Sequence record: OQ031074
From: Shigella phage SFP21A
Strand: one strand, 5' to 3'
DNA length: 39,004 bases
Shown here: one piece after another, positions 1-38,873 of the stretch
Position numbering within the stretch: the stretch's first letter is position 1
Layout of the letters: each line of letters begins with the position of its first letter
The notes under the pieces: model-generated
Told to the model about the DNA's origin: nothing
Seen by the model: only the letters and a program-made list of their open reading frames with translations
Database searches by the model: none
Made by a program: the position numbers and the translations under genes

Positions 1-1050
1 ATGGCAAACGTTCCGGGTCAGAAAATTGGTGCAGACCAAGGTAAGGGCAAATCTAGTGCAGACCAGCTCGCACTGTTCCTTAAGGTCTTCGCTGGTGAAG
101 TCCTGACAGCTTTCACTCGCCGCTCTGTTACCGCTGACAAACATATTGTCCGCACCATTCAGAATGGTAAGTCCGCACAGTTCCCGGTAATGGGTCGCAC
201 CTCAGGTGTGTATCTTGCTCCCGGTGAGCGCCTGAGCGATAAGCGCAAGGGTATCAAACACACTGAGAAGGTTATCACCATTGATGGTCTGCTGACCGCT
301 GACGTGATGATTTTCGACATCGAAGACGCCATGAACCACTATGACGTGGCTGGCGAGTATTCCAACCAGCTCGGTGAGGCTCTGGCTATCGCTGCTGATG
401 GCGCGGTACTGGCTGAGATGGCGATTCTGTGTAACCTCCAGGCTGCATCCGACGAGAACATCGCTGGTCTGGGCAAGGCGTCCGTTCTGGAAGTTGGTAC
501 TAAAGCAGACCTGAACACTCCAGCCAAGCTTGGTGAAGCTATCATCGGTCAACTGACCATCGCACGTGCGAAGCTGACTGCCAACTACGTGCCTGCTGGC
601 GACCGCTACTTCTACACCACCCCTGACAACTACTCCGCGATTCTGGCGGCTCTGATGCCTAACGCTGCTAACTACGCTGCGCTGATTGACCCTGAGACGG
701 GCAACATCCGTAACGTAATGGGCTTCGTTGTGGTAGAAGTTCCTCACCTGACTCAGGGCGGTGCTGGTGAAACTCGTGGTGACGATGGTATCTCTATCGC
801 TTCCGGTCAGAAACACGCATTCCCGGCTACCGCCAGCTCTACCGTTAAGGTTGCTCTGGACAACGTTGTGGGCCTGTTCTCTCACCGTTCTGCTGTCGGT
901 ACTGTTAAGCTGCGCGACTTGGCGCTGGAACGTGACCGCGACGTCGATGCTCAGGGCGACCTGATTGTTGGTAAGTACGCTATGGGTCACGGCGGTCTGC
1001 GTCCAGAAGCGGCAGGCGCACTGGTTTTCAAGGCAGCGTCAGCGGGTTAA
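1..1050 (+). CDS. 10A: major capsid protein (T7 gp10A homolog)
   Basis: 349-aa ORF with T7-capsid blocks in the translation (KSAQFPV, HTEKVITIDGLLTADV, MPNAANYAALIDPE, HRSAVGTVKLRDLALER, KYAMGHGGLRPEAAG). Its RBS AGGAGA is at the window end (~38991-38996), so the start codon sits at the permutation point. Confidence 0.95.
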   Translation: MANVPGQKIGADQGKGKSSADQLALFLKVFAGEVLTAFTRRSVTADKHIVRTIQNGKSAQFPVMGRTSGVYLAPGERLSDKRKGIKHTEKVITIDGLLTADVMIFDIEDAMNHYDVAGEYSNQLGEALAIAADGAVLAEMAILCNLQAASDENIAGLGKASVLEVGTKADLNTPAKLGEAIIGQLTIARAKLTANYVPAGDRYFYTTPDNYSAILAALMPNAANYAALIDPETGNIRNVMGFVVVEVPHLTQGGAGETRGDDGISIASGQKHAFPATASSTVKVALDNVVGLFSHRSAVGTVKLRDLALERDRDVDAQGDLIVGKYAMGHGGLRPEAAGALVFKAASAG

Positions 1051-15253: not shown

Positions 15254-17013
15254 GTCAAGACTTAGCGGCGCGTCAGGCGCTTATGACTGCCCGTATGAAG
15301 GCAGACTTCGTGTTCTTCCTGTTCGTTCTGTGGAAAGCTCTGTCACTTCCTGTTCCGACTCGCTGTCAGATTGACATGGCGAAGAAGCTATCGGCTGGGG
15401 ACAACAGGCGTTTCATCTTACAGGCGTTCCGTGGTATCGGGAAGTCCTTCATTACGTGTGCCTTCGTGGTCTGGAAGCTGTGGAATAACCCGGACTTGAA
15501 GTTCATGATTGTGTCGGCCTCAAAGGAACGAGCCGATGCTAACTCCATCTTCATCAAGCGTATCATAGACCTGATGCCTCAGCTCCAAGAGTTGAAGCCT
15601 AAGCAGGGACAGCGAGACGCAGTAATCAGCTTTGACGTAGGGCCTGCCAAGCCTGACCACTCTCCTTCGGTTAAGTCCGTTGGTATCACTGGTCAGTTAA
15701 CTGGTAGTCGTGCTGACATCCTGATTGCCGATGACGTAGAGGTCCCCGGTAACTCAGCTACTCAGGCAGCGCGTGACCGACTGTCCGAGCTGGTGAAGGA
15801 GTTCGACGCAATCCTGAAGCCGGGTGGTACGGTTATCTATCTGGGTACGCCTCAGACCGAGATGACCCTATACCGCCAGCTTGAGGGTCGTGGTTATTCG
15901 ACTACCATCTGGCCTGCTCGCTACCCACGGGATGAGAAGGACTGGAAGTCTTACGGCGACCGTCTGGCTCCTATGCTTCAGGCCGAGCTTGAGTCTGACC
16001 CTGAGGGCTACTACTGGAGACCTACCGATGAGGTTCGCTTCGATGATGAGGACCTGAAGGAACGTGAGCTGTCCTACGGTAAGGCTGGCTTCGCTCTACA
16101 GTTCATGCTCAACCCGAACCTAGGGGATGCCGAGAAGTACCCTCTGAAGCTGCGTGACCTTATCGTAGCGGACTTGGACCCTGAGTCTAGCCCTATGGTC
16201 TACCAGTGGCTGCCGAACCTTCAGAACAAGCGTGATGACGTTCCTAACGTGGGACTCATGGGTGATTCCTACCACACGTATCAGACTGTAGGTTCTGCCT
16301 TCAGTTCGTACACCCAGAAGATTCTGGTCATTGACCCAAGTGGTCGAGGTAAGGATGAGACCGGATATGCGGTTCTGTACCAGCTCAACGGCTACATCTT
16401 CGTGATGGAAGCTGGTGGTATGCGAGGAGGCTACGAGGACTCTACGCTGGAAGCTCTGGCGAAGATTGGTCGCAAGTGGAAGATTAACGAGTACGTCATT
16501 GAGGGTAACTTCGGTGATGGCATGTATCTCGAATTATTCAAGCCTGTAGCGGCCCGTATTCACCCGGCAGCAGTTACCGAGGTCAAGAGTAAGGGTCAGA
16601 AGGAGCTACGCATCTGCGACGTTCTGGAGCCTATCATGGGGTCTCACCGACTCATCGTGAACTCCTCGACCATTGTGTCTGACTACCAGACTGCCACTGA
16701 TAAGGATGGAGTCCGCAACCCTATCTACTCACTGTTCTATCAGATGACCCGTATCAGCCGTGAACGTGGGGCCTTGGCTCACGATGACCGACTTGATGCT
16801 CTGGCTATCGGTGTGCAGTTCTTCGTAGAGTCTATGGCGAAGGATGCCATAAAGGGACAGCGTGAAGTAACCGAGGAGTGGCTGGAGGAACAGATGGAGG
16901 ACCCACGGAAAGGCTTTAAGTCCATCGAGACTGACTATTGGGACAATGGGGTCCGGGTCCAGTTCAATACGGATGATGACTTGGGCTTAGGGTCCTACGT
17001 ACAGTTCCACTAA
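15250..17013 (+). CDS. 19: terminase large subunit (gp19)
   Basis: 587 aa; near-identical blocks to T7 gp19 ([109 protein letters not shown]). Apparent TTG start 9 nt after GGAGG. Confidence 0.95.
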
Positions 17014-17489: not shown

Positions 17490-18060
17490 ACGGACCTAAG
17501 GTCAGTTCATAGCTGACGCTACTCTACTGACCTTAGCTACTGTAGTCAAGGACTTTAGGTAATACCCTAATAGAAGCTCACTTAGGGTCATCCTACTCAC
17601 TGGTCTACCCTAGTGTCGCCTGACCTACGGTCCTTGACCTACAGTGGCTGAGGCCTACAGTAGGGACGATGAGTTTTGGACCAAAAGTTTGAGACCACAT
17701 CTCACAGTTCAAGAACCTCAAGTCTCCCCATAGGGTCACTTCCAGTCAGACCAAAGGCCACCACCCCTAGACCTTCGGTCTAAACCTCAAGTCATTGACC
17801 CGAAGTCGACCCGAAGTCTGGACCGATAGGGCCTATATCTTGTGGTTGGGACGATGGGTCGGGACTATATGTTGTGTCTCCGAGTCCCTATCTGTATCAG
17901 CCTCAAGTCATCACCTTCAGTCTCACTACCTACAGTCATCGACCATCGGTAAAGCCGCTACCTACAGTCATCGACCTACAGTCAGTAGACACCATGTTGA
18001 CCTACAGTTTATCAGAGTCCTAAGGTCTAGACTCACAGGTTATCACATCCGGTCCGTTTA
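17490..18060. repeat. non-coding terminal region: short direct/inverted repeat arrays flanking a putative collapsed direct terminal repeat (about 17700-17889)
   Basis: Inverted repeat CCTAAGGTCAG / CTGACCTTAGG (17495-17537). Repeated CCTACAGT/GACCTACAGT units (17620-17660, 17930-18015), CCTCAAGTC x3, tandem GACCCGAAGTC x2 (17800-17822), 19-bp CTACCTACAGTCATCGACC x2 (17926-17975). 17700-17889 begins TCTCACAG.. and ends ..TCCCT, like the T7 160-bp terminal repeat as recalled. Confidence 0.5.
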
Positions 18061-18210
18061 GCAGTCAGAGACCATAGCTGACTAGGGTTATTAGTTAGTG
18101 TCTTGCTAACTGGACTCTCATTATCCACAGTCCAGACTTAAAGTCAATCATCTGTAGTCATCCTTATATAGTCATTGGACTACTGTATAAATTACCATGA
18201 TAAATAGTTG

Positions 18211-18240
18211 TTGACAGTGGGTCTAACTTTTGGTTTAATA
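18211..18240 (+). promoter_or_regulatory. host sigma70-type early promoter (T7 A1-like)
   Basis: TTGACA (18211-18216), 17-nt spacer, TTTAAT (18234-18239). Surrounding sequence resembles the T7 A1 region (GTCTAAC..). Confidence 0.65.
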
Positions 18241-18354
18241 GCTTCCGTCAACACGACACGGCAAACACCGGATAGTGAAGACGCCGGGTCGGTCCGGTTA
18301 AGTAGTCAGCCTGTAAGACATACGAAAAACAGGCAACCGACAGAAAGAAAGTAG

Positions 18355-18385
18355 TTGACAAGCAGTAACGACTTAAAGTAGTATG
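18355..18385 (+). promoter_or_regulatory. host sigma70-type early promoter (T7 A2/A3-like)
   Basis: TTGACA (18355-18360), ~17-18 nt spacer, -10-like GTAGTAT, then ATGTACCACATCGAAACGACAGTGAG, very similar to the transcribed region of T7 A3 as recalled. Confidence 0.65.
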
Positions 18386-18535
18386 TACCACATCGAAACG
18401 ACAGTGAGGCCTAACACTGAAACAGGCTAGCGAGGCGACGACAGCCAAGCGAATGCTCTTTAACAATCTGGATAAACTCTTAATGTGCGCCGATAGTAAG
18501 CGATTAACTCAAGAGACTTGTTGGCTACTGCGGGT

Positions 18536-18578
18536 CAGGCTCAAGATGAGCGCCTAAGGTCTCTTTATGATAATCACT
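18536..18578 (+). ncRNA. putative RNase III site upstream of gene 0.3 (R0.3-like)
   Basis: GGCTCAAGATGAGCGCCTAAGGTCTCTTTATGATAATCACT resembles the T7 R0.3 region (CTCAAGG..CCCTTTATGATATTCACT) and the window's own hairpin motif. Confidence 0.4.
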
Positions 18579-18597
18579 CACTTAAAGGATACACATC

Positions 18598-19050
18598 ATG
18601 ATTTACACTAACGAACCAGCTAACGTCTTCTATGTGCTCGTGTCAGCCGCTCGTGCTGGACTGTCAGACATAGTGAACATGGGCCGTCAGTTAGACCTTA
18701 AGGCACTGCTACAAGCTGAGCCAGACTACTACGGTGTGCTCGAATGCACTGGGCTTACAGGATGCTACCGCGAGGAAGGGCAAGAGGTCGCCACTGAGGA
18801 GAGAACATATCGTGTGCGCTGTGAGTCCAAAGCTCAGGCTATCAACGTTGCGCGGCTGGCCTGCAATGACTTTGAGCAAGACTGCGTGATGGTCTACAAG
18901 TCTCAGACTCACACGGCTGGCCTGATGTTCTGCAAAGGTCTGGATGGCTACCGCACTGAGCGCCTGCACGGGTCATTCCAGCAAGTCGATGCGCCCAAGG
19001 GTGAATGCTTCACGAAAGACGCTGAAGGACGCTTCTGGGAGGTTGTGTAA
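18598..19050 (+). CDS. 0.3: S-adenosyl-L-methionine hydrolase/lyase (T3 gene 0.3-type anti-restriction protein)
   Basis: 150 aa; N-terminus MIYTNEPANVFYVLVSA.. and blocks TGCYRE, RVRCESKAQAINVARLACN, QDCVMVYKSQTHTAGLMF match the T3 SAMase as recalled; first gene after the sigma70 promoters; RBS AAAGGA. Confidence 0.75.
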   Translation: MIYTNEPANVFYVLVSAARAGLSDIVNMGRQLDLKALLQAEPDYYGVLECTGLTGCYREEGQEVATEERTYRVRCESKAQAINVARLACNDFEQDCVMVYKSQTHTAGLMFCKGLDGYRTERLHGSFQQVDAPKGECFTKDAEGRFWEVV

Positions 19051-19051
19051 G

Positions 19052-19255
19052 ATGGTTAACTCATACCCTAATCACATCAAGCCATGGATAACGGTTGATA
19101 TTGAGACCGTGGGCGACTCCAAGTTTGTGACCATACGGTCAAGCATACACGTTAACAAGGAGTTCAAGCTACCACACAGCTACAGCCTGAGCTGGGGAGA
19201 CTGGGAGATTCTGCGTGATGGCGCTTTCCTCAAGTACGCAAGGAGGTTCTACTGA
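19052..19255 (+). CDS. hypothetical early protein
   Basis: 67-aa ORF starting ATG 19052 immediately after the SAMase stop (MVNSYPNHIKPWITVDIE..); early-region position; no recognisable motif. Confidence 0.4.
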   Translation: MVNSYPNHIKPWITVDIETVGDSKFVTIRSSIHVNKEFKLPHSYSLSWGDWEILRDGAFLKYARRFY

Positions 19256-19380
19256 TGTACACGATAAGCTACAGCAGCGAGCAGGCGTTCTATGATGGTC
19301 TCGTCGAGCTGATGAAGCGCGGGGCCTGCTACACGGCTAACCACCATGCGCTAACCATAACGCTGACAGGCGGGTACTGA
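19255..19380 (+). CDS. hypothetical small early protein
   Basis: 41-aa ORF (MYTISYSSEQAFYDGLVELMKRGACYTANHHALTITLTGGY); start overlaps the upstream stop (TGATG); RBS AGGAGG at 19241-19246. Confidence 0.35.
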   Translation: MYTISYSSEQAFYDGLVELMKRGACYTANHHALTITLTGGY

Positions 19381-19424
19381 GTGTTAACTGATTGTCACTT
19401 AACCACAAGAAGGAAACACACGTA

Positions 19425-20159
19425 ATGAACGCACACGATAAAGTAATCATGAATAACCTGATGTCTCAACTTCACGCTATAATCTGCGAGGAGTGCTACA
19501 AGATTGAAGACCCGTTCGCTGGCATAGCTGGTCAGCCACGCTGGGGAGCCTTTGAGATACTGGCCCGTGAGCATGGCTACAAGCTGTTAGGTCTGGGACA
19601 CTTCGCCGCTGCCTTTGAGCATGAGGACCTGCCGGGATATGCAATAAAGGTGGGCTTCAAGAAGGATGACTCAGGCGCTGCATATGCGGCCTTCTGCCGA
19701 GAGAATGAGGGTCTGGCTGGACTTCCGGTCATCCATCTGGTCAAGCGCTTCAGCAGGGCTTACATGGTGGCTATGGACAAGTACCGCTCACTGAATGACA
19801 TTGGTGGTGACTACTGCCGGGATGGTGAGACCTACGAGCAGCGAGTATTAAACGTGTCATGGCGTGTGGTCAACGCGATAATAGACCATTGCGAGCAACC
19901 GTCTGAGGCCCTGAGCTGGTGGCTGGACCAAGACGCACGGGCTGAGTTTGCACACGTCGAGGCTCAGTATATCAAGGACCTTGCGCAGACCGCTAAGAAG
20001 ATTAACAGTTTCTTCTACGGGCTGGCATCATTCGACACTCACCGCGCTAACGTGATGGTCGACAATAACGGGCGCTTGATAATCACGGACCCAGTGTCAT
20101 GGACCGCAATCGACCATCAAGATGAGCTGCAAGGAAAGCTGAATGCAATAGCTGAGTGA
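19425..20159 (+). CDS. 0.7: serine/threonine protein kinase (gp0.7 homolog), kinase domain only
   Basis: 244 aa from ATG 19425 (RBS AAGGAAAC); blocks GLGHFAAAF, IKVGFKKDDSGAAYAAFCR, GLASFDTHRANVMV, ITDPVSW match the T7 gp0.7 kinase domain; lacks the ~110-aa C-terminal shut-off region of T7 gp0.7. Confidence 0.8.
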   Translation: MNAHDKVIMNNLMSQLHAIICEECYKIEDPFAGIAGQPRWGAFEILAREHGYKLLGLGHFAAAFEHEDLPGYAIKVGFKKDDSGAAYAAFCRENEGLAGLPVIHLVKRFSRAYMVAMDKYRSLNDIGGDYCRDGETYEQRVLNVSWRVVNAIIDHCEQPSEALSWWLDQDARAEFAHVEAQYIKDLAQTAKKINSFFYGLASFDTHRANVMVDNNGRLIITDPVSWTAIDHQDELQGKLNAIAE

Positions 20160-20165
20160 TAGACG

Positions 20166-20190
20166 AGAGGCCACTACATCTAGTGGTCTC
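20166..20190 (+). ncRNA. stem-loop after kinase gene (possible RNase III site)
   Basis: GAGAGGCCACTACATCTAGTGGTCTC: stem CCACTA/TAGTGG shared with the hairpin at 14720; no U-tract, so a processing site is more likely than a terminator. Confidence 0.35.
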
Positions 20191-20224
20191 AAAGATTATT
20201 ACTCACAACATATAGAGGTGAACT

Positions 20225-20314
20225 ATGAACATTGGTTACTGGGTGTGCCTATCTCCGGTAATATTCCTGATAGCCTTCGGTCTTCTGGACGCAATCAAGC
20301 GAGGGTCATTATAA
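20225..20314 (+). CDS. hypothetical 29-aa hydrophobic peptide
   Basis: MNIGYWVCLSPVIFLIAFGLLDAIKRGSL; RBS GAGGTGA 7 nt upstream; stop overlaps the next start (TAATG). Confidence 0.3.
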   Translation: MNIGYWVCLSPVIFLIAFGLLDAIKRGSL

Positions 20315-20508
20315 TGGGCTGGCTACTTCTGGTCATCGGCTATGGTCTGATAGCTGCAATCCTTGCTAAGGACATAACCAAGGCACGTAAAGTCTACCGC
20401 TTCCAGTACGTATCACTGGGCCGCTGGACTGTAAGACAACCAAACGGACGCTTTATGCGCAACCTCGCAAACGTCTGGGACATCGCAACCTTAGGGAGTA
20501 AACTGTAA
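20314..20508 (+). CDS. hypothetical small membrane protein
   Basis: 64 aa with N-terminal TM segment (MGWLLLVIGYGLIAAILA) and basic tail; stop overlaps the next start (TAATG). Confidence 0.4.
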   Translation: MGWLLLVIGYGLIAAILAKDITKARKVYRFQYVSLGRWTVRQPNGRFMRNLANVWDIATLGSKL

Positions 20509-20834
20509 TGAGCAAGTCATATGGGATTAATCTGGTTCATGCGCTGGACGCAGACCTTAACCTACTTTCAGCACTGGCTACAGGCTACCGTCACGGGACC
20601 TCAAGTCACACCATTCGTCAGCAGCAGGAGCGCGACCGGGTGCTGCAAGCAAGACTCCGGGCCGAGGGCCAAAAGTCCGAGCTGATGTGTCTGGCGTATG
20701 GTGGACGACCTCGCACTGACGATGGTAAACTTCTGGTCTCAGGCTGGAGGGCGATAGACCAGCGGTCCGACATCAAGCATACATCCAAAGGAGACTTCAG
20801 CCATCTCCATGCTAACCCACTGATATGCAAGTAG
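20508..20834 (+). CDS. hypothetical early protein
   Basis: 108-aa ORF; RBS GGGAG upstream; no recognisable motif; directly upstream of the RNAP promoter/leader. Confidence 0.5.
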   Translation: MSKSYGINLVHALDADLNLLSALATGYRHGTSSHTIRQQQERDRVLQARLRAEGQKSELMCLAYGGRPRTDDGKLLVSGWRAIDQRSDIKHTSKGDFSHLHANPLICK

Positions 20835-20839
20835 TTTGG

Positions 20840-20862
20840 ACTAAACTATCACTAAAGGACTC
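20840..20862 (+). promoter_or_regulatory. phage RNAP promoter variant (..CTAAACTATCACTAAAGGAC), +1 about 20857, upstream of gene 1
   Basis: Exact 14-nt match to the upstream consensus, but CACTAAAGG instead of CACTATAGG (T3-like -2 base); followed by a structured leader. Confidence 0.5.
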
Positions 20863-20937
20863 AAGGTCGAAAGACTCTAAGTCAGGACTGAAGTGAAAGA
20901 CTTTAGTGATAAGACAACAGTTATAAGGACTTTAAGT

Positions 20938-23619
20938 ATGAGCGTCATCTCAATTGACAAACACGACTTCTCTGATGTGTCGAATGCAATCGAACCTTTC
21001 AACGTACTGGCGGACCACTACGGACAAGACCTAGCAGTCAAACAGCTCCAGCTAGAGCATGAGGCATACACTGAAGGTGAGCGACGTTTCATTAAGAACC
21101 TTGAGCGTCAGACTGAGCGCGGGGAACTGGCAGACAATCAGGTTGCTAAGCCACTGATGCAAACGCTGGTCCCGACCCTCGCTAAGGCTGTGCGTGAGTG
21201 GCATGAAGGCCCGGACGGTAAGTCCTCGACCTCGCGTCCAAGCGTAGCGTTTACCATGCTAAGCACTGATGAGAAGGCCGTCAAAGACCGCACTCTGCGC
21301 ATCTCCGCCGAGTCTGCTGCGGTCATCATACTGAAAGTAATCCTCAGCAAGCTGGTAAAGCCTGAAGGCATTCCGATAACTCCTATGGCGTCCGCGATAG
21401 GTCGCACACTGGAAGATGAAATCCGCTTTGGTCGCATCCGTGAGCAGGAGCAGGAGCACTTCAAGAAGACCATAGCGGAGAACCTGAAGAAACGCGCTGG
21501 CGCAAGCTACAAGAAAGCCTACATGCAGGCGGTCGAGGCGTCTATGCTTGAGCAGGGGCAACTGGCTGACGCGTGGGGGACTTGGAGTCCGACCGAGGCA
21601 GTTCACGTAGGCATCAAGATGCTAGAGCTGGTCATCCAGTCATCGCAACTGGTCGAGCTGAAGCGCTACGGTGCGGGGAATGCAGCAGCGGACGTCGAGA
21701 TGGTTCACCTGTCTGACTTCTGGGTCAAGAAGATGGCTCAGCGTGGCTTCTCTCTGGCGGGAATTGCCCCAGTTTACCAGCCATGCGTCGTGCCACCTAA
21801 GCCGTGGACCGGGGTGGTTGGAGGTGGGTACTGGGCTAAAGGTCGCAGGCCACTACCTCTGATTCGCTTAGGGTCTAAGGCTGCGGTCCAGCGCTACGAA
21901 GACGTGTACATGCCTGAAGTGTACGAGGCCGTGAACATCATTCAGCAGACTCCTTGGAAGGTAAACAAGAAGGTGCTGGAAGTGGTTAACATGGTCGAGA
22001 AGCTGAATAACACGCCTATCGCTGACATCCCTCAGATGGAGCCGCTGAAGCCTGAAGACTATGCGGGTGAGACCGAGGAGGAGCTTAAGGCTTGGAAGAA
22101 ATCTGCGGCTGGCATCTATCGACGCGAGAAGGCACGACAGTCTCGCCGTTTATCGCTGAGCTTCATCGTCTCACAGGCTAACAAGTTCTCTCAGTTCAAG
22201 GCCATCTGGTTCCCGTACAACATGGACTGGCGAGGTCGTGTTTACGCTGTCCCGATGTTCAACCCTCAGGGCAACGATATGCAGAAGGGCCTGCTGACTC
22301 TGGCGGTAGGCAAGCCAATCGGTGCGGACGGCTTCAAATGGCTGAAGGTACACGGTGCAAACTGCGCGGGTGTCGATAAAGTCACCTTTGAGGAGCGCAT
22401 CAAGTGGGTTGAGGACAATCACGACAACATCCTCGCGACTGCTAAGAGTCCGATGGATAGCATTGACTGGTGGGGCCAGCTAGACTCTCCGTTCTGCTTC
22501 CTCGCGTTCTGCTTTGAGTATGCCGGGGTTATGCACCACGGGCTGAGCTACTCCTGCTCTCTGCCTATCGCGTTCGATGGGTCCTGCTCTGGGATTCAAC
22601 ACTTCAGCGCCATGCTCCGTGACCACGTTGGTGGACATGCGGTAAACCTAACGCCTTCCGGTAAGGTCCAAGACATCTACCGCATTGTGTCCGACCGGGT
22701 GGAAGAACAGCTCAAGGAACTGCTGGTCAACGGCAGTGACAACGAGGTGAAGACCTTCGAGGACAAGAAGACAGGCGAGATTACTGAACGTCTGGTCCTT
22801 GGGACCCGTGAGCTGGCCCGACAGTGGCTGACCTACGGGATGTCACGCTCGGTCACTAAACGCTCGGTCATGACTCTGGCCTACGGGTCGAAGGAATACG
22901 GGTTCGCGGACCAAGTGTTTGAGGACACCGTGATGCCAGCGATTGACAGTGGCAAGGGCGCAATGTTCACCGACCCAAGCCAAGCGTCTCGCTTCATGGC
23001 TAAGATGATATGGGACGCTGTGAGTGTGACCGTAGTGGCTGCGGTGGATGCAATGAAGTGGCTTCAGGGTGCGGCTAAACTGCTGGCTGCCGAGGTCAAG
23101 GACAAGAAGACCAAAGAGGTCCTTAAGCCTTGCCTCCCGGTTCACTGGGTAACGCCTGATGGATTCCCGGTCTGGCAGGAATACCGCAAGAAAGACACCA
23201 CACGTCTGAACCTCCTGTTCCTTGGGTCGTTCAACCTGCAACCGACAGTCAACAAAGGGTCGAAGAAAGAGCTGGATAAGCACAAGCAGGAATCCGGTAT
23301 CAGCCCTAACTTTGTACACTCACAGGACGGCAGTCACCTGAGGAAGACTGTAGTCCACACCCACCGCAAGTATGGCGTGATGTCATTCGCGGTGATTCAC
23401 GACAGCTTTGGAACCATCCCGGCAGACGCTGAGTTCCTGTTCAAGGGAGTCCGTGAGACGATGGTCGAGACCTACCGCGACAACGATGTGCTGCAAGACT
23501 TCTACGAGCAGTTCGCAGACCAGCTTCATGAGAGCCAGCGCGACAAGTTGCCAGAGCTACCGAAGCGCGGTAAACTGAACATCGAAGACATTCTGTTATC
23601 TGACTTTGCATTCGCCTGA
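20938..23619 (+). CDS. 1: DNA-directed RNA polymerase, single-subunit (T7 gene 1 homolog)
   Basis: ~893 aa from ATG 20938; extensive near-identity to T7 RNAP blocks (PCVVPPKPWTG, RYEDVYMPEVY, AIWFPYNMDWRGRVYAV, MFNPQGNDM, SPFCFLAFCFEYAG, AFDGSCSGIQHFSAMLRD, VTKRSVMTLAYGSKE, HDSFGT, C-terminal DFAFA). Confidence 0.97.
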   Translation: MSVISIDKHDFSDVSNAIEPFNVLADHYGQDLAVKQLQLEHEAYTEGERRFIKNLERQTERGELADNQVAKPLMQTLVPTLAKAVREWHEGPDGKSSTSRPSVAFTMLSTDEKAVKDRTLRISAESAAVIILKVILSKLVKPEGIPITPMASAIGRTLEDEIRFGRIREQEQEHFKKTIAENLKKRAGASYKKAYMQAVEASMLEQGQLADAWGTWSPTEAVHVGIKMLELVIQSSQLVELKRYGAGNAAADVEMVHLSDFWVKKMAQRGFSLAGIAPVYQPCVVPPKPWTGVVGGGYWAKGRRPLPLIRLGSKAAVQRYEDVYMPEVYEAVNIIQQTPWKVNKKVLEVVNMVEKLNNTPIADIPQMEPLKPEDYAGETEEELKAWKKSAAGIYRREKARQSRRLSLSFIVSQANKFSQFKAIWFPYNMDWRGRVYAVPMFNPQGNDMQKGLLTLAVGKPIGADGFKWLKVHGANCAGVDKVTFEERIKWVEDNHDNILATAKSPMDSIDWWGQLDSPFCFLAFCFEYAGVMHHGLSYSCSLPIAFDGSCSGIQHFSAMLRDHVGGHAVNLTPSGKVQDIYRIVSDRVEEQLKELLVNGSDNEVKTFEDKKTGEITERLVLGTRELARQWLTYGMSRSVTKRSVMTLAYGSKEYGFADQVFEDTVMPAIDSGKGAMFTDPSQASRFMAKMIWDAVSVTVVAAVDAMKWLQGAAKLLAAEVKDKKTKEVLKPCLPVHWVTPDGFPVWQEYRKKDTTRLNLLFLGSFNLQPTVNKGSKKELDKHKQESGISPNFVHSQDGSHLRKTVVHTHRKYGVMSFAVIHDSFGTIPADAEFLFKGVRETMVETYRDNDVLQDFYEQFADQLHESQRDKLPELPKRGKLNIEDILLSDFAFA

Positions 23620-26704: not shown

Positions 26705-26786
26705 ATGGTGCGAGATGATGTTCGAGAGGACAGGCAACACAGACTATCTCGAAATGTATAACCTGTGGAAGGGGAGAGGGCTATGA
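26691..26786 (+). CDS. hypothetical 31-aa protein
   Basis: [31 protein letters not shown]; overlaps the upstream and downstream genes by a few nt (ATGA coupling); short, uncertain. Confidence 0.3.
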
Positions 26787-26947
26787 GCCTTGAAGAAAAG
26801 AAGTACATCGTGGAGCTTGAGGGTCGCGTTCAGTCCTTTGAGGTCCCGGTATACGCCAAGTCTCTGGACGAGGCGACCCTCAAGTCTCAGGAATATGAAG
26901 ATGCTGGTTTCGTGGTAGGCCGCATCCGACCTGAGCTGCACGACTAA
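26783..26947 (+). CDS. 2: host RNA polymerase inhibitor (gp2 homolog)
   Basis: 54 aa from ATG 26783; [34 protein letters not shown] parallels T7 gp2 ([34 protein letters not shown] as recalled). Confidence 0.7.
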
Positions 26948-33275: not shown

Positions 33276-33559
33276 TGGCTATTACTAAACGCCTGACCTG
33301 TAAGTTTGACCTGAAGATTGTCTTTACGTCTGAGGACGTAGAGTCCTACTCTCGTGAGCTGGTGGAGATGACCAAGGGTTATGTCTCCGGTAAGAAGCAG
33401 GATGGCCTTACCCGCAAGCTGGTTGAGACTGCCGTAGAGCATGGGGTAGAGTCTGCCATTGAGCTGCACCTGAAGTCTGTGCTGGCGTCCAAGCTGAAAG
33501 ATGAGCTGCCGGAAGACGGGGCGACCCTCTCGAATATCAGCGTGGGGTTCAAGCAATGA
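33275..33559 (+). CDS. hypothetical protein (gene 5.5 position)
   Basis: 94 aa from ATG 33275 overlapping the DNAP stop (TAATG); starts MAITKRL..; T7 gp5.5 occupies this slot, homology not verified. Confidence 0.45.
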   Translation: MAITKRLTCKFDLKIVFTSEDVESYSRELVEMTKGYVSGKKQDGLTRKLVETAVEHGVESAIELHLKSVLASKLKDELPEDGATLSNISVGFKQ

Positions 33560-33765
33560 GTGAATACTTACGGGTCCTAGCGGCCCTTAAGTCCTGCCCG
33601 AAGACCTTCCAGTCCAACTATGTGCGCAACAACGCTGCACTTGTGGCTGAGGCTGCGAGTCGTGGACATCTAAGCTGCCTGTCTATGGATGGGCGTAACA
33701 ACGGTGCGTGGGAGATTACCGCTGCTGGCACCAAGTTCCTGAACCAACACGGAGGCTGTCTATGA
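33556..33765 (+). CDS. 5.7: gp5.7 homolog
   Basis: 69 aa; near-identical to T7 gp5.7 as recalled (LKSCPKTFQSNYVRNNAALVAEAASRGH, GAWEITAAGTKFL). Confidence 0.7.
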   Translation: MSEYLRVLAALKSCPKTFQSNYVRNNAALVAEAASRGHLSCLSMDGRNNGAWEITAAGTKFLNQHGGCL

Positions 33766-37988: not shown

Positions 37989-38873
37989 ATGTCCCAATCA
38001 GTTTATGCCGAGTTCGGCGTTAGCCCTAATGCAATCACTGGCTCCGTTGAGGACCTGAACGAACACCAGCGGTCTATGCTCGAACAGGACGTAGCAGTTC
38101 GCGATGGCGATGATGCTATTACCTTCAAGCAACTGGAAGACGAGAACGACTCGACTACCGAAGAAGACGAAAACGTCGACGAGACTGAAGGTGATGATGA
38201 TACCGAAGGCAACGACGATGAGTCTGATACCGAAGGTGATGACCAAGAGTTTGTCGAACTGGGTGAAACTCCTAAAGAGCTGACCGAAAGTGTCACCGCT
38301 CTGAACGAGAACGAAGCTGCCTTCGACGACATGGTTTCTGCTGCTGTAGAGGCTGGCAAGGTCACTGCTGATGACATCACCGCTATTAAGGCCGAATACG
38401 CCTCTAAAGGTGAGCTGTCCGAGGCATCCTATGCTAAGCTGGCTGAAGCTGGTTACACAAAGCGTTTCGTCGATTCATTCGTCCGTGGTCAGGAAGCTCT
38501 GGCTGAGCAGTATGCTGCTGGTGTGGTTCGCTACGCTGGTGGGGCTGAGCAGTTTAACCGCATCCTGTCTCACCTTGAGGCTAACGATAAGTCAACCAAG
38601 GAAGCCCTTGAGTCTGCAATCATCCGTAAGGACCTTGCGACCGCTAAGGCCATCCTGAATCTGGCTGGTCGTAACCTCGGTAAGACCCGTGGAGTTGCCC
38701 CTCAGCGAACCTTGACTACTCAAGGTAAGCCAGCGGTATCCGCACCGAAGGTCCAGACCGAAGGTTTCAGCTCCAAGGCCGATATGGTCAAGGCGATGAG
38801 TGACCCACGCTACCTGCGTGACGCGAAGTACACAATGGAGGTACGCGCTAAGGTTGCAGCGTCTAGTCTGTAA
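37989..38873 (+). CDS. 9: capsid assembly (scaffold) protein (gp9)
   Basis: 294 aa from ATG 37989 (RBS AAAGGAGA); blocks VYAEFGV, EHQRSMLEQDVAVRDGDDAI, FVELGETPKEL, LSEASYAKLAEAGYTK.FVDSFVRGQEALAEQY, RKDLATAKAILNLAG, KAMSDPRY as in T7 gp9; acidic central region. Confidence 0.93.
   Translation: MSQSVYAEFGVSPNAITGSVEDLNEHQRSMLEQDVAVRDGDDAITFKQLEDENDSTTEEDENVDETEGDDDTEGNDDESDTEGDDQEFVELGETPKELTESVTALNENEAAFDDMVSAAVEAGKVTADDITAIKAEYASKGELSEASYAKLAEAGYTKRFVDSFVRGQEALAEQYAAGVVRYAGGAEQFNRILSHLEANDKSTKEALESAIIRKDLATAKAILNLAGRNLGKTRGVAPQRTLTTQGKPAVSAPKVQTEGFSSKADMVKAMSDPRYLRDAKYTMEVRAKVAASSL

What the first reader, a model, noticed from the sequence alone, without database searches (positions are those of the whole stretch)
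19425..20159. Gene 0.7 kinase lacks the C-terminal host shut-off domain
The ORF ends shortly after the conserved ITDPVSW block, at 244 aa, whereas T7 gp0.7 is ~359 aa with a separable C-terminal transcription shut-off region. Only the kinase module appears to be encoded. A stable hairpin follows the stop.
Basis: partly seen in the sequence, partly recalled or inferred. Interest (0 to 1): 0.4.

Follow-up and report, generated by a model that had tools for sequence, protein, structure and literature searches.

The report
Kinase-only T7-type phage protein kinase
This phage's early protein kinase really does lack the extra C-terminal "host shut-off"/DNA-binding domain found in phage T7, but this short form is the normal, conserved version in its whole group of phages and not an error or a peculiarity of this genome.

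Summary
Observation confirmed. The ORF 19425-20159 (+) encodes a 244-aa homologue of the T7 gp0.7 kinase. Its last residue aligns with T7 R242. That is the border between the kinase domain (1-242) and the shut-off/DNA-binding (SO) domain (243-359).

No SO-like sequence exists in any frame of the 39-kb window. The control worked: the same SO profile detects 53 of 77 more distant homologues.

The stop is not an artefact. The same TGA and the same length (242-244 aa) occur in about 40 Kayfunavirus records and in Caroctavirus CR8 (54% identity). All 43 closest database clusters are short. dN/dS is 0.04-0.17.

All catalytic motifs are intact and the predicted fold is a confident protein-kinase fold.

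The hairpin after the stop (20153-20205) is the counterpart of the T3/T7 R1 RNase III processing site, not a terminator.

The gene is an accessory 775-bp cassette within the genus. K1F and Ro45lw lack it, and it is flanked by a 7-bp direct repeat.

Whether the SO domain was lost or never acquired could not be resolved.

Verdict: real and correctly interpreted, but ordinary for the clade, which already has its own PHROG family. Interest is modest: the clade is a natural "delta-SO" kinase.

The parts
19425..20159 (+). Gene 0.7-type protein kinase, kinase domain only (244 aa plus TGA)
   Evidence: ORF. PHROG 15752 is matched end to end at E 3e-111, while phrog_2828 (T7/T3 type, 366 positions) is matched only over positions 51-224. 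The protein is 98% identical to the annotated kinases of SFPH2, Dev2 and GW1. AF2 model pLDDT 90.3 with a kinase fold.
19590..19598 (+). Gly-rich loop G56-L-G58 (G58 = T7 G76; the G76F mutant is catalytically dead in T7)
   Evidence: Invariant columns in alignments A1, A3 and A5. The G76F mutant is described in PMC13645617.
19647..19649 (+). Invariant Lys K75 in IKVGFKK (= T7 K93), presumed ATP-binding lysine
   Evidence: Invariant in 55 sequences. The ATP-binding role is inferred by analogy with protein kinases.
20034..20051 (+). Catalytic-loop motif D204-T-H206-R-A-N209 (= T7 D195/H197/N200)
   Evidence: Invariant columns.
20088..20099 (+). DPV motif D222-P223-V224 (T7 213-215, DFG-like) and S225 (= T7 S216, autoinhibitory phosphosite)
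   Evidence: Invariant columns. The motif and the site are described in PMC13645617.
20109..20156 (+). C-terminal helix (residues 229-243) that corresponds to the T7 linker helix ending at R242; the protein stops where the T7 SO domain would begin
   Evidence: Alignment. Helix H229-243 in the model.
20153..20205 (+). Two-part hairpin (lower stem, internal loop, upper stem 20167-20176/20181-20190) overlapping the stop codon: R1-type RNase III processing site
   Evidence: Fold. It aligns with the annotated T3 R1 stem-loop and with the corresponding region downstream of T7 gene 0.7. The consensus structure is shared, with 6 of 20 pairs compensatory. No T-run or terminator match. It is kept in the kinase-less K1F and Ro45lw.
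19377..19383 (+). Upstream copy of the 7-bp direct repeat CTGAGTG, at the stop of the 41-aa ORF
   Evidence: Ro45lw has one copy at this junction and no kinase.
20152..20158 (+). Downstream copy of CTGAGTG, at the kinase stop; the two copies are 775 bp apart and bound the kinase cassette
19255..19380 (+). 41-aa early ORF upstream (phrog_33188)
   Evidence: The homologue Ro45lw_03 abuts the hairpin directly.
20314..20508 (+). 64-aa basic ORF with a hydrophobic N-terminus (phrog_2385), between the kinase and the RNA polymerase
   Evidence: It is also present in kinase-less Ro45lw.
20508..20834 (+). 108-aa ORF (phrog_7066, called 'gp0.38' in Dev2 and CR8)
20938..23619 (+). T7-type RNA polymerase (gene 1), 62% identical to T7 gp1

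Best explanation
The window is a circularly permuted, complete genome of a Kayfunavirus (K1F-like, T7 family) phage. Gene 19425-20159 is a genuine early gene under purifying selection. It encodes a T7K (gp0.7)-type Ser/Thr/Tyr protein kinase made of the kinase domain alone. The protein ends at the position where T7, T3 and JSS1 kinases continue into the basic C-terminal shut-off/DNA-binding (SO) domain. Shown: the architecture, its conservation across the clade, intact catalytic motifs, and a confident kinase fold. Inferred from work on T7K and JSS1_004: the protein is made early from host-polymerase transcripts and phosphorylates host proteins, and probably defence proteins, promiscuously. 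It then inactivates itself through the conserved Ser225 (T7 S216). Because it has no SO domain, it should lack the kinase-independent, toxic transcription shut-off and DNA binding. By analogy with the engineered T7 delta-SO phage, it should show less bias toward nucleic-acid-binding substrates and earlier self-inactivation. Inhibition of the host polymerase would then rest on the gp2 and gp5.7 homologues that the genome does encode. The hairpin overlapping the stop codon is the positional and sequence counterpart of the T3/T7 R1 RNase III site. It most likely defines and stabilises the 3' end of the kinase mRNA and is not a terminator. Within the genus the kinase is an accessory 775-bp cassette, present or absent between two copies of CTGAGTG.
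For: Identity and architecture. PHROG 15752 is matched end to end (E 3e-111). phrog_2828 is matched only over its kinase part. Window E244 aligns with T7 R242. There is no SO match by tblastn or by HMM over six frames. The HMM control works: 53 of 77 distant homologues hit, down to about 1e-27, and 0 of 43 in the window's clade.

Conservation. About 40 phage records at 82-98% identity cover through residue 244. Annotated lengths are 244 aa (SFPH2, Dev2), 243 aa (CHRF_10037) and 242 aa (CR8, a different genus). All 43 clusters at 54% identity or more are at most 244 aa. All five genes compared end in the same TGA, with omega 0.04-0.17 against the window and 0-0.23 over all pairs.

Activity features. 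G56/G58, K75, D204/H206/N209 and D222-P-V-S225 are invariant. The AF2 model has pLDDT 90.3 and pTM 0.87. Foldseek finds APH(2''), Stk1/PknB and Rad53 kinases at probability 1.0, and T7K-like phage kinases in BFVD.

Function of the SO domain. PMC13645617 covers DNA binding, substrate bias, delayed autoinhibition and the PK 1-242 / SO 243-359 border. PMC12345140 covers JSS1_004.

Other host-polymerase inhibitors. gp2 (26780-26932) and gp5.7 (33556-33762) homologues are present.

Hairpin. Cassette.
Against: No experiment on any kinase of this clade was found, so activity, promiscuity and the absence of shut-off are all inferred. The clade has about 27 extra residues in the helical lobe (window roughly 120-187) compared with T7 and T3. 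These might supply a different targeting function. The depletion of Ser/Thr/Tyr in early proteins that was reported for phages with T7K homologues is not evident here: early 14.4%, middle 14.1%, late 16.2%. RNase III cleavage at the hairpin is inferred from homology with the annotated T3 R1 site only.
Confidence: 0.85

Rival explanations
1. The stop at 20157-20159 is a sequencing or assembly error, or a frameshift, and the SO domain continues in another frame.
For: None beyond the length difference from T7.
Against: No SO similarity exists in any frame of the window. The same TGA stop and length are found in independently sequenced SFPH2, Dev2, CHRF_10037 and CR8, in about 40 records and in 43 database clusters. 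The sequence after the stop is a conserved RNase III-type hairpin and conserved small ORFs, not coding remnants.
Confidence: 0.01
2. This is a recent truncation (a nonsense mutation, like T7 amber or deletion mutants) of a full-length kinase in this isolate, and the gene is decaying.
For: Such truncations do occur elsewhere. T3-like P0114 (250 aa) stops a few residues (about four alignment columns) past the kinase/SO border. P0096 (278 aa) looks frameshifted.
Against: Omega is 0.04-0.17 over the whole gene and 0.26 over the last 30 codons. The end point is identical across two genera. All catalytic residues are invariant.
Confidence: 0.02
3. The shut-off/DNA-binding function is supplied in trans by a separate small basic protein encoded just downstream: the 64-aa ORF (pI 11.0) or the 108-aa ORF (pI 9.6).
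For: Both ORFs lie where the SO domain would lie, and both are basic.
Against: Neither has sequence similarity to SO. Both ORFs are also present in kinase-less Ro45lw, so they are not coupled to the kinase. The 64-aa protein starts with a hydrophobic, membrane-like segment, and its CR8 homologue is annotated with a TM helix.
Confidence: 0.06
4. The hairpin after the stop is a transcription terminator that ends early transcription after the kinase.
For: It is a stable G+C-containing stem.
Against: There is no T-run and no terminator-like match in 17500-21500. The essential RNA polymerase gene lies downstream and must be transcribed by the host polymerase. The hairpin aligns and co-folds with the annotated T3 R1 RNase III site and with the corresponding region downstream of T7 gene 0.7.
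Confidence: 0.04
5. The short form is the ancestral architecture. On this reading the T7-type SO domain was added later in the T7/T3 lineage, and Kayfunavirus never lost it.
For: The short clade is monophyletic (100/100) and branches near the base of the kinase tree. The outgroups, jumbo phage JP4 (213 aa), Vibrio D530 (294 aa) and Pseudomonas Illi-1 (405 aa), have no T7-type SO hit.
Against: The branching order relative to SO-bearing kinases is unresolved (18/100 bootstrap). Secondary loss clearly happens in other lineages (P0066, and P0052/67/87). The linker helix and the R1-type site directly after the stop are shared with T7 and T3.
Confidence: 0.4

Closest known systems
Phage T7 gp0.7 protein kinase (T7K; UniProt P00513), also T3 gp0.7 and JSS1_004
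   Same: The kinase domain is homologous (35-39% identity over window 37-227). It has the same Gly loop, Lys, DxHxxN, DPV motif and autoinhibitory Ser. It sits in the same early-gene position upstream of gene 1 and is followed by the same R1-type RNase III hairpin.
   Different: The window protein has no C-terminal SO/DNA-binding domain (T7 243-359). It has about 27 extra residues in the helical lobe. Three small ORFs lie between the hairpin and gene 1.
Engineered T7 delta-SO kinase (residues 1-242; PMC13645617) and, from my own knowledge, the classical JS78 amber fragment that keeps kinase activity but not shut-off
   Same: The window protein ends at the same alignment position (E244 = T7 R242), so it is a natural equivalent of the kinase-only construct.
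   Different: It is a natural form conserved by selection, at only about 35% identity to T7. Its behaviour has not been measured.
Kayfunavirus/Caroctavirus 'protein kinase' family, PHROG 15752 (Dev2 gp0.5, SFPH2, GW1, IMM-002, CR8 gene 0.7)
   Same: 54-98% identity, the same 242-244 aa length, the same stop and the same downstream hairpin.
   Different: Nothing substantive; the window protein is another member. Database notes copy T7 functions such as 'inhibitor of host transcription', which rest partly on the domain that is missing here.
T3 R1 and T7 R1 RNase III processing sites
   Same: Position immediately after the gene 0.7 stop, a two-part stem with an internal loop, and shared core sequence (AGG.CA...GTGG.CT). 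The consensus fold has compensatory pairs.
   Different: The lower stem differs and includes the stop codon here. Cleavage has not been shown for this phage.

Membership tests
T7 gp0.7-type phage protein kinase (Pfam PF27024 Phage_T7_kinase; PHROG 2828/15752) | Significant match to the family profile | tested here: met
   PHROG 15752 E 3e-111 (full length) and phrog_2828 E 6e-52. All 120 listed homologues carry PF27024. The local Pfam copy lacks this model and gave no kinase hit.
T7 gp0.7-type phage protein kinase (Pfam PF27024 Phage_T7_kinase; PHROG 2828/15752) | Catalytic motifs: Gly loop (T7 G76), Lys (T7 K93), DxHxxN, DPV (T7 213-215) | tested here: met
   G58, K75, D204/H206/N209 and D222-P223-V224 are invariant in 55 sequences.
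T7 gp0.7-type phage protein kinase (Pfam PF27024 Phage_T7_kinase; PHROG 2828/15752) | Protein-kinase-like fold | tested here: met
   AF2 pLDDT 90.3, pTM 0.87. Foldseek PDB hits to APH(2''), Stk1/PknB, Rad53 and MPS1 at probability 1.0. BFVD hits to T7K-like kinases, TM 0.74-0.94.
T7 gp0.7-type phage protein kinase (Pfam PF27024 Phage_T7_kinase; PHROG 2828/15752) | Early-region position between the anti-restriction gene and gene 1 | tested here: met
   SAM lyase at 18598-19050, kinase at 19425-20159, RNA polymerase at 20938-23619.
T7 gp0.7-type phage protein kinase (Pfam PF27024 Phage_T7_kinase; PHROG 2828/15752) | Ser/Thr/Tyr kinase activity and autophosphorylation | not testable with these tools
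   Inferred only. The autoinhibitory Ser (T7 S216) is conserved as S225.
Full-length two-domain T7K architecture (kinase + SO/DNA-binding domain) | C-terminal basic shut-off/DNA-binding domain after the kinase domain | tested here: not met
   The protein ends at T7 R242. There is no SO match in any frame by tblastn or HMM. 0 of 43 clade members have it, against 53 of 77 distant homologues.
T7-group RNase III processing site (R1) | Two-part hairpin with an internal loop, immediately downstream of gene 0.7, with sequence and structure shared with T3/T7 R1 | tested here: met
T7-group RNase III processing site (R1) | Cleavage by host RNase III | not testable with these tools
   No Rfam family covers these sites (one search found nothing). 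An experiment is needed.

The most novel reading that the evidence does not exclude
The Kayfunavirus/Caroctavirus kinase is not a degraded T7K. It is either the ancestral kinase-only form, with the toxic DNA-binding SO domain added later in the T7/T3 lineage, or a form that replaced SO-based targeting with its clade-specific insertion of about 27 residues in the helical lobe. In either case it offers a natural system for separating the anti-defence kinase activity from DNA tethering and transcription shut-off.
Probability: 0.3. Interest if true: 0.45.

Novelty: new member of a known kind. Interest (0 to 1): 0.25.

Why it matters
Recent work shows that the T7 kinase disarms many bacterial defence systems (PMC13645617). 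Its C-terminal domain tethers it to DNA, biases it toward nucleic-acid-binding targets and delays its self-inactivation. For JSS1_004, both domains are needed against Dnd (PMC12345140).

A whole clade of therapeutic-candidate phages infecting Escherichia, Shigella, Salmonella, Enterobacter and Cronobacter carries the kinase without that domain, and some close relatives carry no kinase at all.

This gives a ready-made natural comparison for asking what the kinase domain alone contributes. It also shows that database notes such as 'inhibitor of host transcription' on these proteins are carried over from a domain they do not have.

For this particular window it means the gene is ordinary and correctly assembled.

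Tried and rejected
- Pfam-A (local copy) gave no kinase hit, only noise at E of 0.02 or worse. The relevant model PF27024 is newer than that copy, so this is not evidence against a kinase.
- The Rfam gathering scan of the whole window found nothing. T7 RNase III sites are not an Rfam family.
- A second hairpin was sought at the upstream cassette junction (19365-19430, z -0.3) and before gene 1 (20815-20900, z 0.1). Neither is significant.
- Ser/Thr/Tyr depletion in early proteins, as a signature of a promiscuous kinase, shows no clear signal: 14.4, 14.1 and 16.2%. The kinase itself is low at 10.2%.
- Loss versus gain of SO was tested with a neighbour-joining tree with outgroups. The clade is monophyletic but its placement is unresolved at 18/100.
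- A literature search for a statement that K1F-like kinases lack the SO domain found none. The SFPH2 paper does not mention the kinase. Supplementary tables of the Nature paper are not held.
- One search printed excessive low-score tblastn noise; only its top lines are meaningful.

Full report
**What is in the sequence.**
- On the + strand an ORF runs from ATG 19425 to TGA 20157-20159 and encodes 244 aa. An in-frame TTG at 19392 is possible, but annotated relatives start at the ATG.
- The motif ITDPVSW is residues 220-226, and the protein ends 18 residues later.
- tblastn with all T7 proteins shows that the window is a complete, circularly permuted T7-family genome. It begins in gene 10. The early region lies at about 17.3-20.9 kb, followed by gene 1 (RNA polymerase, 20938-23619, 62% identical to T7).
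- The nearest records are Kayfunavirus phages. SFPH2, Dev2 and GW1 are 98% identical on this protein, and SFPH2 is 93.9% identical in DNA over 19200-20900.

**It is a gp0.7-type kinase.**
- PHROG 15752 ('protein kinase', 260 positions) is matched from end to end at E 3e-111.
- The T7/T3-type family phrog_2828 (366 positions) is matched only over positions 51-224.
- BLASTP against T7 gp0.7 (359 aa) aligns window 37-227 with T7 55-218 at 35% identity, E 3e-34.
- The following are invariant in alignments of up to 55 homologues:
  - the glycine loop (G56, G58; G58 = T7 G76, whose G76F mutant is catalytically dead);
  - K75;
  - D204/H206/N209;
  - the DPV motif D222-P223-V224, which is T7 213-215 and the family's DFG equivalent;
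  - S225, which is the T7 autoinhibitory S216.
  The roles of G76F, DPV and S216 are taken from PMC13645617.
- An AlphaFold2 model built on that alignment is confident (pLDDT 90.3, pTM 0.87).
- Foldseek finds aminoglycoside phosphotransferases and Hanks-type kinases (Stk1/PknB, Rad53, MPS1) at probability 1.0. In BFVD it finds the IME278 kinase and T7K-like kinases.

**The shut-off domain is absent.**
- In the multiple alignment the last residue, E244, sits on T7 R242. This is the border used by Bartolec et al. for the kinase domain (1-242) and the SO domain (243-359) (PMC13645617).
- T7 residues 230-359 have no tblastn match anywhere in the 39-kb window in any frame. The best E is 0.8, at an unrelated place.
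- An HMM of the SO region of T7, T3, SRT7 and pEa_SNUABM_57 scores nothing better than E = 2.1 against all six-frame ORFs. The kinase-part HMM finds 19392-20156 at 2e-54.
- The SO HMM is a working detector. It hits 53 of 77 more distant database homologues (down to about 1e-27) and 0 of 43 members of the window's clade.

**It is not an error or a recent truncation.**
- About 40 phage records at 82-98% protein identity align through residue 244.
- Annotated lengths are 244 aa (SFPH2, Dev2), 243 aa (CHRF_10037) and 242 aa in Citrobacter phage CR8. CR8 belongs to a different genus, Caroctavirus, at 54% identity.
- In the 5.8-billion-protein collection, all 43 clusters with 54% identity or more are at most 244 aa. 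More distant homologues (47% or less) are mostly 320-400 aa.
- All five genes compared end with the same TGA.
- dN/dS is 0.044 against SFPH2, 0.158 against CHRF_10037 and 0.168 against CR8, where dS exceeds 2.

**The hairpin.**
- RNA folding of 20140-20230 gives a two-part hairpin at 20153-20205. It has a lower stem that includes the stop codon, an internal loop, a 10-bp upper stem and a 4-nt loop. Its energy is -25.9 kcal/mol with z -3.7.
- There is no T-run, and no terminator-like site is found in 17500-21500.
- In T3 the stem-loop annotated 'RNase III recognition site R1' begins 3 nt after the gene 0.7 stop.
- The window hairpin aligns with T3 R1 and with the corresponding T7 region just downstream of gene 0.7. 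The sequences share a consensus structure in which 6 of 20 pairs show compensatory changes.
- I therefore read it as the R1-type processing site. Cleavage itself is inferred.
- The same hairpin is kept in Ro45lw and K1F, which have no kinase.

**Genomic context and variability.**
- Upstream lie a T3-type SAM lyase (18598-19050, PF23780, E 1e-39) and small ORFs.
- Between the hairpin and gene 1 there are three small ORFs (29, 64 and 108 aa). T7 and T3 have none there.
- The two larger ones are basic (pI 11.0 and 9.6). They show no SO similarity and also occur in kinase-less relatives, so I do not think they replace the SO domain.
- Within Kayfunavirus the kinase is accessory. K1F, the type species, and Ro45lw lack it.
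- In the window the gene sits on a 775-bp segment bounded by two copies of CTGAGTG (19377-19383 and 20152-20158). Each copy contains the stop codon of the preceding ORF.
- Ro45lw has a single copy at the junction, TATTGAGTGATAGGCGAGAGGCC.... This is the pattern expected for deletion or insertion at a short direct repeat.

**Is kinase-only unusual in the family?**
- It is a minority architecture but a recurrent one.
- A separate T7-like lineage (P0052, P0067, P0087; 246-247 aa) ends even sooner after ITDPVSF. On a 41.3-kb contig its gene is followed directly by the RNA polymerase gene.
- T3-like P0114 (250 aa) stops a few residues past the kinase/SO border, and P0066 (254 aa) stops shortly after it.
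- Other homologues of 368-383 aa, such as Dickeya JA10/Ninurta and Klebsiella NahiliMali/Sibilus, carry a different C-terminal region that the SO HMM does not recognise.
- The Nature paper likewise says that Autographiviridae homologues 'mostly' keep the SO domain, and that jumbo-phage and prophage homologues lack it.
- A neighbour-joining tree of the kinase domain with outgroups shows the short clade as monophyletic (100/100). Its position relative to SO-bearing kinases is unresolved (18/100). The outgroups (JP4, D530, Illi-1) have no T7-type SO.
- So 'lacks' is established, while 'lost' is not.

**How it most likely works.**
- Shown: a conserved, selected, structurally complete kinase domain without SO, followed by an R1-type hairpin.
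- Inferred from T7K and JSS1_004 (PMC13645617, PMC12345140):
  - early expression and broad phosphorylation of host and defence proteins;
  - self-inactivation at the conserved Ser;
  - no kinase-independent shut-off or DNA binding;
  - probably a weaker preference for nucleic-acid-binding substrates and earlier autoinhibition, as in the T7 delta-SO phage.
- Host RNA polymerase inhibition would rely on the gp2 (26780-26932, 46% identical) and gp5.7 (33556-33762, 77% identical) homologues.
- One caveat is the insertion of about 27 residues in the helical lobe (window about 120-187). It is specific to the clade and of unknown role.
- The reported Ser/Thr/Tyr depletion of early proteins is not evident here.

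**Novelty and score.**
- The protein is another member of a catalogued family (PHROG 15752) that is annotated in dozens of genomes.
- I found no paper that points out the missing SO domain for this clade. Even so, the architecture is plainly visible in public records and is consistent with remarks in PMC13645617.
- The finding is correct and ordinary for the clade. It has modest interest as a natural delta-SO kinase and as a warning about transferred annotations such as 'inhibitor of host transcription'.

Noticed in passing
window 1-39004: The window is a whole, circularly permuted Kayfunavirus genome. It starts in gene 10 (capsid, 16-1032) and runs through gene 19 (15271-16995), then the early region, then genes 1 to 9 (38001-38870). 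The physical ends and terminal repeat must lie at about 17.0-17.5 kb.
   Followed up: partly
window 19377-19383 and 20152-20158; L009:1700-1730: The kinase gene is a 775-bp presence/absence cassette bounded by the direct repeat CTGAGTG. Each copy provides the TGA stop of the preceding ORF. Ro45lw has one copy and no kinase, and K1F also lacks the kinase but keeps the hairpin.
   Followed up: yes
window 20225-20314: An unannotated 29-aa hydrophobic ORF (MNIGYWVCLSPVIFLIAFGLLDAIKRGSL) follows a GAGGTG ribosome-binding site. Its stop overlaps the start of the 64-aa ORF (TAATG). CR8 annotates a small gene '0.705' at the same place, whereas SFPH2 and Dev2 do not.
   Followed up: partly
window 18598-19050: The anti-restriction gene is the T3-type S-adenosylmethionine lyase (PF23780, E 1e-39), not a T7 Ocr. 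K1F's record annotates an 'ocr-like' 0.3 instead, so this slot also varies within the genus.
   Followed up: partly
window about 19785-19985 (kinase residues about 120-187): The clade has an insertion of about 27 residues in the helical lobe of the kinase relative to T7 and T3. It is modelled as confident helices (H137-155, H159-166, H169-174). Its role is unknown; it could affect substrate choice.
   Followed up: no
proteins P0052, P0067, P0087 (L012:3501-4244); P0114; P0066: Kinase-only or truncated T7K homologues occur independently in other T7-like lineages. One lineage is 246-247 aa and is followed directly by the RNA polymerase gene. T3-like P0114 stops a few residues past the kinase/SO border.
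   Followed up: partly
proteins P0068, P0071, P0076, P0080, P0098 and others: Some homologues of 368-383 aa (Dickeya, Klebsiella and Erwinia phages) carry a different C-terminal region (...KPAGALDAPVFIH) that the T7-type SO profile does not recognise.
   Followed up: no
phage records OR786095.1, PQ520054.1, MT350292.1: Records named 'Staphylococcus phage MBBL139', 'Enterococcus phage IME_EF3' and 'Enterococcus phage EFA-1' are about 84-90% identical in DNA (92-95% on the kinase protein) to this enterobacterial Kayfunavirus region. Their host labels look doubtful, possibly from contamination or mislabelling.
   Followed up: no
window 20893-20940: The mechanical ORF for the RNA polymerase starts at GTG 20893, but similarity to T7 gp1 begins at ATG 20938 (residue 1). 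That ATG is the likely true start.
   Followed up: partly
database annotations of SFPH2, Dev2, GW1, IMM-002, CR8 (RefSeq versions): RefSeq notes call these short kinases 'inhibitor of host transcription; positively regulates RNaseIII; negatively on RNaseE'. The text is transferred from T7 gp0.7, although the shut-off domain is missing.
   Followed up: yes
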